In this document: positions 6,323 through 56,567 of the stretch, in pieces
Layout of the letters: each line of letters begins with the position of its first letter
How positions within the stretch are numbered: the first letter of the stretch is position 1
Assembly (NCBI GenBank): GCA_951406725.2
Contig: OX597834.1
Span: forward strand, 2,976,001-3,040,000
Reading direction: 5' to 3'
DNA length: 64,000 nucleotides
Source: Octopus vulgaris
Lineage: Eukaryota
Translations under genes and position numbers: made by a program
Notes under the pieces: generated by a model
The model's database searches: none
Seen by the model: only the letters and a program-made list of their open reading frames with translations
Told to the model about the DNA's origin: nothing

Positions 6323-6480
6323 TATAATCAAAATGAGCAGCAAGGATATCCAGAGACATCCTTGTTACTCATTTTGATTGTAATAACCCCATTTTGAATT
6401 AAATGGATAATACCATACCACATTCTGGTGCCTTTAACTTAAGTATCATATTCATTTGAATCTAAATTTTACTAAACTTA
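6323..6480 (-). mobile_element. Internally deleted foldback derivative of the 29075/18945 ribozyme-bearing family
   Basis: 28-bp arms at 6323-6350 and 6355-6382 (4 mismatches, 4-nt loop). The rest is the reverse complement of 29075-29175 ('ggtgcctttaacttaagta'). Confidence 0.7.
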
Positions 6481-6682
6481 CACATACATATATATATATG
6501 TGTGTGTAAATGGATGAATGAATTAGCCTTTGTTTACTGTTAACTTGGAAAATTCAATAAACAGTTACCAGGGTAGCAAAATTCACGCAAGTAACACGGA
6601 TGAAGCGACCTATTCAAGGGTAGAAACTCCGGGTTAATGTGCAGTAATTTGTGTAGTATAAGATGTTATTAAAATTCTTTTA

Positions 6683-6765
6683 CTTTCGACATATGTTTCG
6701 AAGACAACATTGGTTTTACTCCAAAGGAATAAACGGTGTAAAATGCAATCTTCTCATCAGGAAAG
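6683..6765 (-). ncRNA. Type I hammerhead ribozyme, intact core
   Basis: The minus strand reads CTTTC-CTGATGA-GAAGA...TCTTC-GAAA-C-ATAT-G-TC-GAAAG. Stem I is CTTTC/GAAAG, stem II is long, stem III is minimal with a palindromic AUAU loop, and the triplet is GUC (predicted cut between 6688 and 6687). Confidence 0.8.
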
Positions 6766-6945
6766 AAAGAGAGCCTGTCTCAACAACAAGACATTGCCGA
6801 AAGTAAAAGAATTTCAATAACATCTGCGTTCAACTCCATTTATTTACTTTTGAAACATATGTATTGAATAAGTATCAGTGGAATTTTTGAAACATATGTA
6901 GAAAGTAAAAATACTTGTTTAAACCTGCGTTAACTCCATTTTTTA

Positions 6946-18869: not shown

Positions 18870-18944
<75 letters not shown>

Positions 18945-19108
18945 TAAAAGCAATTAAGATTCAAGTCAGTTCTAATGAATTCACTTGAATGCGGTACTTA
19001 ACTTAGATGCACCAGAAAACTATATGGTATTAACTATACAATAATGTGGGGTGATTATAAACGAGAAAAAAGCCTCACCAACTAGGATGCTTGGAGAACT
19101 CATATGTG

Positions 19109-19200
19109 TTTTGGCTGATGAGTACGGGACACTTGTATTTGCTGCAATATTTGCAGCTTTTAATAAAGCTTGTCTTCGTATGAAACAAATGTCCAGAAAA
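19109..19200 (+). ncRNA. Type I hammerhead ribozyme, intact core, in a (TA)n-flanked element (about 18945-19230)
   Basis: TTTTGG-CTGATGA(19115-21)-GTACGGGACA...TGTCTTCGTAT-GAAA(19182-85)-C-AAAT-G-TC-CAGAAAA. Stem I has one mismatch. Confidence 0.7.
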
Positions 19201-19229
19201 ACTAATCCATTCTTGTTGCTTTTTTCTCG

Positions 19230-19317
<88 letters not shown>

Positions 19318-29028: not shown

Positions 29029-29074
29029 TATTCTAGTTGAAACTAGAAAAAAAAAAAAATATATATATATATAT

Positions 29075-29444
29075 AAGTTCAGCAAAATTTAGATTCAGAT
29101 GAATAGGGTACTTAAGTTAAAGGCACCAGAATTTGGTATGGTATAATCCATATAAATCAAATGGGGGTGATTATAATCAAAATAAGCAACAAAGATATCC
29201 AAGGTAGTGTAGTACAATCGTTTCATGCTACTTCATTTTGTTAAACAATATAAGTATTATATCAGATAAGTATAAAAATGTACATTGTCCATTTAATTTT
29301 AAATATTCCCTATGTGGCTGAAGATTGCTTTACATTTTAAAACAGGTGTAATACTTACATTGTTTAATAAAATGAGGTAGCATGAAACGATTGTACTACA
29401 CAACCTTGGATATCCTTGTTGCTTATTTTGATTATAATCACCCC

Positions 29445-29445
<1 letters not shown>
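29075..29445 (+). mobile_element. Non-coding foldback element carrying a hammerhead motif, flanked by (TA)n
   Basis: 96-bp inverted arms at 29164-29259 and 29349-29444 (5 mismatches by eye). It is homologous to 18945-19230 and 6323-6480. Confidence 0.75.
29313..29400 (+). ncRNA. Type I hammerhead ribozyme motif
   Basis: TGTGG-CTGAAGA(29318-24)-TTGCT...AGCAT-GAAA(29384-87)-C-GATT-G-TA-CTACA. Stem I is 5 bp, and the first stem II pair is mismatched. Confidence 0.65.
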
Positions 29446-29518
<73 letters not shown>

Positions 29519-45679: not shown

Positions 45680-47340
45680 GCCTGGTGGGTTCTTTGACTC
45701 CATAACTCTACACAGCGAAATGGCAATTATTGATAGCATCAAAATAAAGGAAACTGATGTGGTATCAGCCATTGATGAAATGAGCTCGAATCCAGCCACA
45801 GGCCCAGACGGATTCCCAACAGCCTTCCTAAAGCATAGCAGCTCTAGCAAGACCATTCCATATTCTCTTCCAAAGCTTCGTCGCAACTGGAAGAATTAAT
45901 CAAAAAGTTAAAGGAAGGCATATGTCCTATCCGTAAGGGAGATAGCAGAGCAGATACTAAAAATGATTGACTTGTCTCTCCAACATCCTATGTCAGCAAA
46001 GTCATGAAACGCATTATCAGGAAGAAACTCATTGCGTTCCTTGAAGATAATGACTTGCTTCCCAGACACCCAGCATGGCTTCCGCTCAGGAAGAAGCTGC
46101 CTTACACAGCTTTTGCAGCACTGTGACTGGGTGTTGAAACAATTAATGAACCGCTCAAGCTTGGATCTGATATATCATAAGGTGGCAAAGATCTTTGATA
46201 AGTCTGAATATGGGATGATACGTCACAAGCTACGGAGACTGGATAGCGGTTGCTTGATTTGGAGAGTGGTTGCATGACTTCTTAAAAGACAGAATCCGGG
46301 CTGTGGCAGCCAATGGAACCCTTTCTAAGGACACGGTAGCAGAGAGTGGAGTGCCCCAGGGACTCCATATTGGGACCGCTGCTGTTCATGATGACTCTTT
46401 CAGACATGCCATCAGTTACACAGACAACCACACTCACTAGCTATGTCGACGACACGAAAATAGTACAAACAGTCAAGGAACCTTCTGATGCTAATCTTCC
46501 TCAAAAAGACCTGGATGCCATATATAAGTGGACTGAGGAAAACAACAGGCAATTCCAAGCCCTCCGCTGCCAGCTAATTGGTGCTCAGAAGCCGCAACAA
46601 AGATACCTTGGACCAAAAGGAACGGCGATTCCAGAATTACATAGAGTGCGTGATCTCAGGATTGATTTGAGCAATGCATATCACCAAAATGGTGGCAGTG
46701 CCCAGGCGAATGACCAGATGGATTCTGAGGACCTTCAGAAATAAGGATTAGAAAACTATGCTGGTTCTATGAAGGACATTTGTCCTCAGCCGTTTGGACT
46801 GCTGCTCTCAACTGTGGTCGCCCTACAGTGTCAGATTAATAGCGGAACTTGAGGCAGTTCAGTGATGTTATACATGGAAGATTGCATCAATAGAGCGGCT
46901 GGGTTACTGGGAGAGACTGAAAGAGCAACGACTCTACTCCCTAAAGAGAAGACGGAAGAGGCATGCAGTGATACATGTATGAAAGATTCTGGAGGGGATG
47001 GCATCAAACTTTGGAATCGAGTGCTATACCAGACCCCGAACCGGACGTCACTGCACTGTTCCAAAAGTGCCAGCTCTCCCATCTAGAGCGAGAACCATGT
47101 GCTGCAAAAGCTTGGGATTCAAGGCTCTACAACTATTTAACACCTCGCCAAAACATCTGAGGGATCTTGCAGTGGTTCATGGAGTGGATCTTGAATCATG
47201 GAATGGTGGTAGATATTTTCAAGAAACAGCTTAACCTCCGTCTATCCAGGGTCCTAGATGGACCAGAATCAACGCAGGAGACTCAAAAGAGGGCAATAGT
47301 GTCGTACTCCCTCCTTCACCAAAAGCCAATCGCATCCGAT
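45680..47340 (+). mobile_element. Decayed CR1/L2-type LINE reverse transcriptase and C-terminus
   Basis: 'ATGPDGFPTAFLK', 'TSYVSKVMKRII', 'QHGFRSGRSCLTQLL', 'KIFDK', 'SGVPQG/SILGPLLF', 'YVDDTKI' and 'LQLFNTSPKHLRD'. Many frameshifts and stops. Confidence 0.9.
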
Positions 47341-54301: not shown

Positions 54302-56567
54302 TACATGCATACACACATGCATGCATACGCACATACATACACACACATTCACACATACTATCATACACATACATTCACATATACATACACACATACATAC
54401 ATATATACATACATACATACAGACACGCATACATCCGCACATACATACAGACTCGTGTACATACATCCGCACACAAATGCATATATATATATATACACAC
54501 ACACATATACATATACACTACACGCATATATATACACTACACGCATTCTTACCCAGCTACGTGTATGTAGGTGTATAGGTAAGTAGGGAGATAGGTAGAT
54601 ATCTACCTCCCTTTTTACCTACCCACCCACCTATCTACCATTTTATTTGCTTAATTAATTCATCAACCTACCTTTATTAACAAAACACTTCATTATTTTA
54701 ACTTTTCACCAATTTCATGTGTGGCTGACTTTATTGGAGTTATCTCCCATGGTTGTTGTTTTGGTATATTTTACGAGACCCTTAGATGGAGTTTTTGCTT
54801 ACTAATTGCGGGGATATCAGACACTTGCTTTTGTACTAACTGTATTACGTATGTGAAACGCAACACTATACCTACCTACCAACCGACCGACCGACCTACC
54901 AACCGACCGACCTACCTACCTACCTACCTACCTACCTACCTACCTACCTACCTACCTACCTACCAACCGACCGACCTACCTATATCCGTATCGATACATC
55001 TAATTACCTATCCCTCTCTTTCACTTTTCTCTCCCCCTCTCTCTCTCTCTCTCTTTCTCTCGCGATACGTAAACTTATTGATCCACATAACATTGCTGCA
55101 TAATGTTAAACATTTCAATTATGTCGTCGATTTTCTTCCATACTTATGCTTCTTGAAGGCATCAGCACACGAAATTGATTCATTGTGTTAAAAATTGTTC
55201 ATTATGTCCCCGATGTTCTTCCTTAGTTTAGCTTGTCTTACAACATCGAAACTGGTTCATCTCATTAAACGGTTTCATTTCATTAATATCTTCATTGTGT
55301 CGCCGATTCCTTTCCATAGCTGCTAATCTTTTAGGAACCCTCGAAGTTAGTTCACTATGTTTAAAGCCTCCGTTATATTTCCGATTTCCTTCCATAGTTA
55401 ACCCTTTCCCTGTCCCCAACATCACATATTATTGCACAGGACGTTTTCCCCGGGCGTCCAGGCATCAGATACAACACACATTCTCGGTTTTTCTCTTTCA
55501 ACCAACAGAGTTACTTGGGACTTATGAAAGGAAAACTCTCTTTTACTCAGAACGTAAAAGTCTGAAAACAACCAGGGTCGTTCAGGACATATTTATTAAA
55601 TGCTTTGGACCGGCAAAATCGAGCTTGATGATTAAGGACCTCTTTCTAGAAATTTCAATTATTTCCCTTATTTCCTTCCGTAGTTCAAACGCAACATCCG
55701 ACCATAGTGACAAACTTCATATTAGAGAAGCAGAGATACAGAGACGGTGAGAGGCGGGAAAGGGGTCATAGAATGGGCTTTTCTGGTTATTAAATAAATT
55801 TTATTGATTACAATAAATAATATTTATTAAAATGAAGTCGTTCAACATTTTTTTTATCATTTATTAAAACAAGTTACATTTATTAAAATCGATTACATTT
55901 ATTCCAGTGAGTTTTATTTATCGAAATGACTTTTATTCGTTAAAATGTTTTAGATATCAAAATGAATTTTATTTAATAAAAACAATTTTATCTCTTAAAG
56001 ACGTTTATAAAAAGATAAATACACGGCTACAAAGAGAGAGAGGAAGACAGAGAGAGAGGGAGACACAGAGAGAGGGGGAGAGAGAAGAATAAACATACAT
56101 ATATTTGTGCATGTGGGTATATATATATATATATATATATATATACGCATATTAAAATATCTCATCCATATTTGTAAATTACTATAAACTATATCGTATC
56201 AGTTAATATTAATATTTCACATAGTCTATAAGAAAGTTCAGTGAATATTTCGCTCTGAATATTAATTTTAAAATTTTAAATATTCTTGCAAGTTATCATG
56301 ATGAAAAACGCCATGGCTTGTTCACGTCCGCCATTGAAATCACATATGCACACACAGAGAAACGTCCGTTATATTCGCCTGAAAATTTGTTTTTATTATA
56401 GTATTTCACATAGTGTAAAATGTGAAAATGTAGTTTAATAGTGGAATATGTATAATGTGTATCAGTGACCCGCTATTGTAATATGGGAGATGAAATCTTT
56501 TGTGATTTTTATAGGATAAAAAACATCTAACGACAATTAAAATGGAATATGTAATGACCTCTTTGAG

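What the first reader, a model, noticed from the sequence alone, without database searches (positions are those of the whole stretch)
29075..29445. 96-bp foldback whose right arm is the 3' half of a hammerhead
Seen: the arms at 29164-29259 and 29349-29444 differ at about 5 positions. The CUGAAGA strand sits in the 89-nt loop, while the 3' strand of stem II, GAAA, the GUA site and the 3' strand of stem I lie in the right arm. This is the same design as 6661-6825 in a different sequence family. Inference: the foldback is intrinsic to the replication mechanism. If transcribed, it would also give long dsRNA suitable for ADAR editing (extensive in coleoid cephalopods) or Dicer.
Basis: partly seen in the sequence, partly recalled or inferred. 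Interest (0 to 1): 0.7.

Follow-up and report, generated by a model that had tools for sequence, protein, structure and literature searches.

The report
Back-to-back Penelope retrotransposon ends
This hairpin is an ordinary remnant of a common Penelope-type jumping gene: two shortened copies of the element's end sit back to back in a TA repeat, likely because its enzyme copied the element's RNA into both cut DNA strands at once, and one copy happens to keep a known type of RNA motif predicted to cut itself.

Summary
The foldback is real (96-bp arms, 5 mismatches) and the hammerhead parts lie where stated. It is not a designed hairpin. It is one insertion of a high-copy Penelope-like retrotransposon: two 5'-truncated end pieces joined head to head at 29265|29266 in a (TA)n repeat. 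Longer copies run into an RT + C-terminal GIY-YIG ORF with Hydra-clade motifs. Of 97 copies taken in genome order, 62 carry such an inverted piece. Inverted 5' copies, a one-sided tail and the pLTR hammerhead are published PLE traits; Hydra hammerheads share this core. Mechanistic extra: the two ends nearly always use different fixed start sites 96 nt apart (54 of 55 and 15 of 15, p=2e-14), which fits two coordinated primings on one RNA. Cleavage, transcription, editing and Dicing are untested. The scan has noted the same thing before on other DNA of this genome. New family of a known kind; low interest.

The parts
29075..29265 (-). Tail-bearing piece: 3'-terminal 190 nt of the retrotransposon (family positions -189..0), 5'-truncated inside helix II of the hammerhead; holds only the 3' half of the ribozyme
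   Evidence: 96% to family majority sequence; junction
29075..29171 (-). 'Tail': 97 nt between the internal start site and the fixed terminal site; present at one end only; ends against (AT)n
   Evidence: 568 exact matches of the terminal 26-mer; 87 of 97 followed by an AT-rich repeat
29266..29446 (+). Inverted 5'-truncated piece (family positions -265..-86), joined head to head; carries the complete hammerhead; ends 10 nt past the usual internal site, at an AT shared with the flank
   Evidence: 93% to family majority sequence; 0 of 66 other canonical inverted pieces end 3' of -94
29164..29259 (+). Left arm of the foldback (overlap of the two pieces; homology continues to 29265)
29349..29444 (+). 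Right arm of the foldback (homology starts at 29343)
29313..29400 (+). Type I hammerhead motif: helix I 29313-17/29396-400, CUGAAGA 29318-24, U.U at 29325/29383, helix II 29326-29/29379-82 with a long extension, GAAA 29384-87, near-palindromic helix III 29387-94, predicted cleavage after A29395
   Evidence: same core layout as Hydra hammerheads in PMC8557442 File S2; cleavage not tested
29426..29436 (+). Internal start site (family position -96), ending in TATA; the usual outer end of inverted pieces
   Evidence: 49 of 62 inverted pieces end at -101..-94; 1383 exact matches of this end followed by TA repeat
29060..29074 (.). (TA)n target microsatellite, left flank (right flank (AT)n from 29445)
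   Evidence: sequence

Best explanation
The stretch is a single 5'-truncated insertion of a Penelope-like retrotransposon with Hydra-clade motifs, made of two end pieces joined head to head in a (TA)n repeat, and it likely arose when the element's enzyme cut both DNA strands and primed one copy from each. Shown: the two-piece anatomy, the parent ORF, two fixed outer ends 96 nt apart, free inner ends. Inferred: the GIY-YIG nuclease nicks both strands of the TA repeat; one 3' end primes reverse transcription at the terminal site, the other at the internal site, both helped by AT pairing; both cDNAs stop early at unrelated points and repair joins their ends. Where both pass the same RNA stretch, the overlap becomes the arms, and whatever only one piece reached becomes the loop and the tail. 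The hammerhead is the normal pLTR ribozyme of the parent, likely dimer- or protein-dependent. In this copy it is a passenger and would be zipped shut in a plus-strand read-through transcript.
For: Parent: copies run without a break from the same 3' end through about 1.2 kb of UTR into a GIY-YIG domain (Pfam PF01541, E 5e-5) and an RT. Long copies carry the same inverted stub ending at -96 (L148/L291, L292, L295, L298, L302). Geometry: 62 of 97 genome-order copies have an inverted piece; arms 0-254 nt, spacers 1-739 nt. Partner ends are heterotypic: tail-selected 54 internal vs 1 tail; internal-selected 15 tail vs 0 internal (p=2e-14). In 38 of 54 each piece holds sequence that the other lacks. 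Arms of one insertion agree at subfamily sites 169 of 187 vs 56% between insertions. Their 5' end points correlate (Spearman 0.44, p=0.0009). In tandem sister copies the tail continues with ATAAT, so both start sites offer AT pairing. Literature: both strands cut and extended, two RT start sites define the tail, hammerhead not needed in vitro (PMC11167929). An inverted 5'-truncated copy and a one-sided tail are standard (PMC8557442) and recorded for a Hydra element (Penelope-13_HM).
Against: No biochemical or RNA evidence for this family. PMC11167929 saw no difference in start site between strands and initiation without homology to the target, unlike the pattern here. Arms disagree at 35 of 357 subfamily sites against 5.2% background (p=0.0003), and L238 looks like two parents (5 of 15 sites), which one-RNA priming does not explain unless those sites are hypermutable. 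Junction microhomology is weakly shown: 8 of 14 cleanly resolved junctions share 2 or more bases (null 20%), but 40 of 54 did not resolve cleanly, and this copy's junction is blunt. This copy's inverted piece ends at -86, not the modal -96. Hydra membership rests on motifs and a by-eye comparison, not a tree.
Confidence: 0.88

Rival explanations
1. Same element, but the inversion comes from fold-back self-priming: one strand (antisense RNA or first cDNA) snaps back and is copied into a hairpin, and the nuclease then trims one arm at the internal site.
For: Proposed for Adineta Penelopes from palindromes at inverted junctions (PMC3846280 Discussion); tail ascribed to EN-mediated resolution (PMC8557442). 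It predicts heterotypic ends and matching arms, both seen. Some junctions share 2-4 bases.
Against: In 38 of 54 copies each piece has sequence the other lacks, so extra trimming must be assumed. Near-perfect palindromic junctions are only 3 of 54. In vitro the tail ends are RT start sites, not trim sites (PMC11167929). At least one insertion has arms that look like different parents.
Confidence: 0.12
2. Same element, but the two pieces are copied from two separate RNA molecules (or two pLTRs of a tandem transcript) held by a protein dimer, not from one pLTR.
For: Excess arm discordance at subfamily sites, 35 of 357; near-full-length bodies with a short inverted stub; predicted dimer (PMC11167929).
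Against: Arms usually share their variants (18 of 38 insertions with no discordant site, 12 with one). Strict one-site-per-end pairing is simpler on one RNA. This differs from the best explanation only in template number and overlaps with it.
Confidence: 0.3
3. One reading: the hairpin is a fixed, selected unit that regulates the ribozyme or feeds ADAR or Dicer.
For: The hairpin is predicted to be very stable (-157.6 kcal/mol) and to block the hammerhead fold. Small RNAs against Penelopes are known in Adineta (PMC3846280 passages).
Against: Arm length and ribozyme content vary freely. No two independent insertions were seen to share a junction except local duplicates. The arms have drifted by 8 of 102 positions. 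No Pfam-detectable host exon among 140 of 173 filtered open stretches of the window.
Confidence: 0.04
4. A DNA-transposon MITE or foldback element with a chance hammerhead look-alike.
For: Short, non-coding, high-copy, long inverted repeats, TA target.
Against: The inverted repeat is not terminal on one side (97-nt tail); 35 of 97 copies show no inverted piece; inner ends vary; the sequence is continuous with an RT + GIY-YIG ORF; 48 of 59 complete motifs keep all 11 core bases.
Confidence: 0.01

Closest known systems
Hydra clade of C-terminal EN+ Penelope-like elements (Craig et al. 2021, PMC8557442; e.g. Penelope-5_HM, Penelope-13_HM, Hydra-1_Obim). Seen: passages, section 11, supplement hits and part 2 of 59
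   Same: DKT, CxCX5C linker, CxxC and CxH around the conserved E and N, GLYRDD active site, (TA)n target, type I hammerhead near the 3' end with the same core and U facing U at the base of helix II; 5'-inverted truncated copy recorded for Penelope-13_HM.
   Different: A different family from Hydra-1_Obim (other hammerhead; three protein motifs of this family absent from the supplement). Longer (over 3.4 kb against mostly under 3 kb), with an Asn-rich linker. 59 nt between the core strands against about 10-25 in the listed Hydra motifs. Tail 96 nt against 30-40 reported for PLEs.
Poseidon_Ac (PAc) of the green anole (Frangieh et al. 2024, PMC11167929). Seen: main text, parts 1-2 of 4
   Same: AT-rich target, both strands cut and extended, two fixed RT start sites that bound the tail, hammerhead read through during insertion.
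   Different: There the start sites are adjacent, used alike on both strands and without target homology. Here they are 96 nt apart, paired one per end in genomic copies, and both end in AT-pairing bases.
Metazoan PLE hammerheads (Cervera and de la Pena 2014, PMC4209133). Seen: parts 1-2 of 4
   Same: Type I, 4-5 bp helix I, short palindromic helix III, truncated single copies genome-wide, pairs on opposite strands 100-700 bp apart.
   Different: U.U instead of the usual G10.1-C11.1 pair, and a much longer helix II.
Adineta vaga Penelope inverted pLTR insertions (Arkhipova et al. 2013, PMC3846280). Seen: passages and Discussion
   Same: Head-to-head inverted pLTR, tail at one of the inverted pLTRs, Asn-rich linker inserts.
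   Different: TSDs are visible there and junction palindromes are common; here targets are microsatellites and palindromic junctions are 3 of 54.
L1 twin priming (recalled; only search listings seen)
   Same: Two target-primed cDNAs joined head to head; 10 of 54 copies here have the same non-overlapping layout.
   Different: Here the second site is fixed and the two pieces mostly overlap, giving inverted repeats.

Membership tests
EN+ Penelope-like element | ORF with RT and C-terminal GIY-YIG endonuclease, continuous with this end sequence | tested here: met
   L148, L150, L163 and others join the ORF to the same 3' end; GIY-YIG Pfam hit above cut-off; RT motifs read directly, Pfam gave no RT hit on the fragments scanned, homologues carry RVT_1 in 3 of 120 listed. 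All copies seen are broken.
EN+ Penelope-like element | Partial tandem: pLTR directly upstream of the ORF | tested here: met
   Seen in 3 sister-subfamily copies, L296, L303, L304 (74-81% to the family pLTR); not seen in the closest subfamily among 20 loci.
EN+ Penelope-like element | Inverted 5'-truncated copy at the 5' end and tail at one end only | tested here: met
   62 of 97; ends heterotypic.
Hydra clade PLE | DKG changed to DKT | tested here: met
   ADKTGN in L160, L292, L294, L295, L296, L302.
Hydra clade PLE | CxCX5C linker; CCHH absent; CxxC and CxH flanking the conserved E and N | tested here: met
   Read from L149, L150, L092 against the definition.
Hydra clade PLE | N-terminal RWK motif | tested here: inconclusive
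   One sister copy reads RW followed by I at the matching place (L296).
Hydra clade PLE | Insertion into (TA)n and a canonical 3' hammerhead | tested here: met
   87 of 97 tail flanks and 48 of 54 inverted-end flanks TA-like; motif matches File S2 layout.
Hydra clade PLE | RT groups with Hydra references in a tree | not tested
   Reference proteins were seen only as paper text; colinear by eye.
Type I hammerhead ribozyme | Conserved core with helices I, II, III and an NUH site | tested here: met
   All 11 core bases in this copy; 48 of 59 complete family motifs intact; helices keep pairing with different sequence in three families of this window. No Rfam hit.
Type I hammerhead ribozyme | Self-cleavage | not testable with these tools
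   Indirect only: 54 of 66 inverted pieces read through the site; 7 of 41 ends fall near it vs 3.4 expected (p=0.051), not at one base.
MITE / foldback DNA transposon | Fixed terminal inverted repeats at both ends, no RT link | tested here: not met
MITE / foldback DNA transposon | Fixed-length target-site duplication | tested here: inconclusive
   Flanks are (TA)n on both sides, so a duplication cannot be read.
Non-LTR retrozyme | Non-coding head-to-tail tandem monomers with one hammerhead each (definition from the abstract) | tested here: not met
   Pieces are head to head, of free length, and extend into a coding parent.

The most novel reading that the evidence does not exclude
These insertions record a fixed two-enzyme reaction: a dimer grips one RNA at two set sites 96 nt apart and primes one from each DNA strand, the lagging enzyme displacing the leading cDNA. 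This would explain in one step the inverted pLTR, the one-sided tail and the overlap of the arms in Penelope-like elements, and it assigns one start site to each strand, which the single in vitro study did not see.
Probability: 0.45. Interest if true: 0.5.

Novelty: new member of a known kind. Interest (0 to 1): 0.24.

Why it matters
The locus itself is a decayed transposon fragment with no sign of its own function. The family matters modestly. How Penelope-like elements make their inverted ends is still open in print (PMC8557442 Discussion passages), and this family gives hundreds of scoreable insertions with two widely spaced start sites, so priming models can be tested by counting. It also shows that such elements scatter 20-250 bp inverted repeats through this genome, a possible source of double-stranded RNA if transcribed (untested), and that hammerheads with a long helix II are missed by Rfam.

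Tried and rejected
Rfam: whole window (best 150 of 687 rows shown, microsatellite hairpins; no hammerhead among them) and the locus alone (7 rows, no hammerhead). The repeat finder on the whole window was swamped by microsatellites. Compensatory change in helix I within the family: not significant (22 T-A, 6 A-T, 8 T-T, 5 A-A; p=0.14), rejected. My first idea that U.U at the base of helix II was decay from G-C: rejected, since Hydra hammerheads share it and 54 of 59 family motifs have it. Run-off at the cleavage site as the cause of truncation: no clear pile-up. Editing footprint in DNA copies: A>G 87 of 7229 vs T>C 73 of 8438 (p=0.04), but C>A vs G>T is more skewed (p=0.0006) and copies are not independent, so not counted. 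Expression: no RNA holder listed. Contigs of three guessed-RNA runs and one other run cover the family but no listed piece spans this copy's junction with its own letters; not evidence either way. Higher identity of core bases across copies (0.977 vs median 0.957) is too slight to show selection. Literature searches for a strand-specific two-site model listed nothing beyond PMC11167929, PMC8557442 and PMC3846280; subscription papers are not covered, and supplements of PMC11167929, PMC4209133 and PMC3846280 were not opened.

Full report
1. Observation. The arms at 29164-29259 and 29349-29444 are 96 nt with 5 mismatches around an 89-nt loop. Rfam does not detect it. Both flanks are TA repeats.

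2. It is a dispersed family. The window lies in a 2.8-Gb assembly; the stretch has 2794 first-look candidates, 40 scored. The terminal 26-mer has 568 exact matches and the internal end followed by TA repeat has 1383, each with 0 in the reversed control.

3. Parent. Copies chosen on the upstream part extend through about 1.2 kb of non-coding sequence into an ORF end. Long copies (L148, L150, L163 and others) add a GIY-YIG domain (Pfam PF01541, E 5.1e-5, above cut-off) and RT motifs. The protein has DKT, a CxCX5C linker and CxxC/CxH around the late E and N. These are the marks that Craig et al. give for the Hydra clade (PMC8557442 section 11). By eye it is colinear with Hydra-1_Obim, but three of its motifs are absent from that supplement and its hammerhead differs, so it is another family. 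No tree was built. Three sister copies show the pLTR running straight into the ORF, with ATAAT after the terminal site. No intact ORF was seen.

4. Anatomy of this copy. Against a family majority sequence (position 0 = last base), the window copy is two pieces: -189..0 on the minus strand (29075-29265) and -265..-86 on the plus strand (29266-29446), joined bluntly head to head. The arms are their overlap (102 nt, 8 mismatches). The loop is mostly the 76 nt that only the plus piece reached. The 97-nt tail is what only the minus piece has. None of the five arm differences falls on a subfamily site, and both arms share the minor variant at -172, so both came from one source lineage and drifted afterwards.

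5. I took the first 100 listed of the 568 terminal matches in genome order: 99 loci, 97 after dropping two local duplicates (L189, L248). 62 of 97 have an adjacent inverted piece; this is a lower bound, since stubs under about 25 nt are missed. 49 of 62 outer ends fall at -101..-94. For the 54 with outer ends at -120..-80, arms run 0-254 nt (median 71.5) and spacers 1-739 nt. The foldback is therefore made anew at each insertion, and its relation to the ribozyme is chance. MITE hallmarks fail; a target duplication cannot be read in (TA)n.

6. Mechanism. The two outer ends are almost always of different kinds. Tail-selected insertions have an internal-site partner in 54 and a tail partner in 1 (7 further partners end elsewhere). 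Of 30 internal-selected ones, 15 have a tail partner, 0 an internal partner, 1 other and 14 none seen; many of those 14 are diverged subfamilies that my reference does not follow upstream. Fisher p=2e-14. In 30 loci chosen on an upstream region the pattern is 7 mixed, 1 tail/tail, 0 internal/internal. In 10 of 54 the pieces do not overlap, in 28 the inverted piece reaches further 5', in 16 the tail piece does. Arms of one insertion agree at 169 of 187 polymorphic sites against 56% between insertions, and differ by 5.7% against 9.7%. Their 5' ends correlate. With the in vitro result that a PLE protein cuts and extends both strands and starts at two sites that bound the tail (PMC11167929), the simplest reading is two coordinated primings, one per strand, most often on one RNA, followed by end joining. 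This step is inferred. Against it: discordance at subfamily sites is 35 of 357 vs 5.2% background, and L238 looks like two parents; microhomology is shown for only 8 of 14 clean junctions, with 40 of 54 unresolved; and the in vitro study saw no strand difference in start sites. Fold-back self-priming with trimming (PMC3846280 Discussion) is not excluded. The wording 'one RNA copied from both strands at once, from two fixed points' also stands in earlier scan notes that I read, before the pairing test.

7. The hammerhead. All 11 core bases are intact here and in 48 of 59 complete family motifs. Helix III is a short near-palindrome; among about 101 pieces, 42 plus 7 are perfect palindromes and 32 have this copy's G.U form. 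That fits the dimer-dependent, weak PLE hammerheads of PMC4209133. The U facing U at the base of helix II matches Hydra elements of cnidarians, a sea cucumber and a copepod. Other families in the window keep the same helices with other sequences. Within-family covariation was not significant. Alone, the active fold is predicted within 2.4 kcal/mol of the best fold; inside the hairpin it is 67 kcal/mol worse. Most templates were not cut at this site when copied: 54 of 66 inverted pieces read through it, with at most a marginal excess of ends nearby, as expected if cleavage is not needed for insertion. Cleavage is untested.

8. dsRNA, ADAR, Dicer. A read-through transcript of either strand would fold back (inference). 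I have no evidence on whether this locus is transcribed, and no Pfam-detectable host exon turned up among 140 of 173 filtered open stretches. The idea stays open and would apply to any inverted repeat.

9. Comparison and verdict. Inverted 5'-truncated copies, one-sided tails, (TA)n targets and pLTR hammerheads are all published PLE traits. It works like, and by every motif tested is, a C-terminal EN+ Penelope-like element, most likely Hydra clade. Small differences: a 96-nt tail, a long helix II, AT pairing at both start sites, and strict pairing of end types. The scan has recorded the same phenomenon on other pieces of this genome. Papers seen: PMC11167929 parts 1-2 of 4; PMC8557442 passages, section 11, supplement hits and part 2 of 59; PMC4209133 parts 1-2 of 4; PMC3846280 passages and Discussion; bioRxiv 10.64898/2026.07.22.740005 abstract and outline; others as listings only. 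Verdict: new member of a known kind, interest 0.24; the most novel reading (one start site per strand on one RNA) has probability 0.45 and would merit 0.5.

Noticed in passing
window 6323-6480: Second insertion of the same family: tail piece -123..0 on the minus strand plus a 30-nt inverted stub ending at -96; no hammerhead core.
   Followed up: yes
window 6510-6850: Unrelated high-copy family (3002 first-look candidates) with the same head-to-head layout, a longer tail and a complete hammerhead on the minus strand. Its inverted piece begins at about the predicted cleavage nucleotide; other copies inspected read through it. Parent protein not sought.
   Followed up: partly
window 18941-19235: Third family (77% to this family's tail) with 17-nt arms at 19056 and 19219 and a complete hammerhead at 19115.
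   Followed up: partly
window 29325-29383, 19122-19181 and 6700-6753: All three hammerheads have 54-60 nt between the core strands that fold into a long helix II (z about -3 against 300 base shuffles), much longer than in the Hydra motifs of PMC8557442 File S2.
   Followed up: partly
G000:C3:64.0-74.2 Mb (L240-L257): 18 of the 39 tail matches listed for this 182-Mb contig fall in about 10 Mb.
   Followed up: no
L149:2360-4096, L163: Poly-asparagine stretch between RT and endonuclease, like the N-rich inserts of Adineta Penelopes.
   Followed up: no
L188/L189, L247/L248, L200: Whole head-to-head insertions duplicated locally with identical junctions.
   Followed up: no
L298, about 260 nt before the inverted piece (minus strand): A long copy sits just after an exon-like stretch with an HExxHxxGxxH zinc-protease motif (the label matrix-metalloprotease-like is recalled).
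   Followed up: no
window 46340-46741 and 54655-55188: Weak RT fragment (Pfam RVT_1, E 4.7e-4, under cut-off) and a PT-repeat stretch.
   Followed up: no
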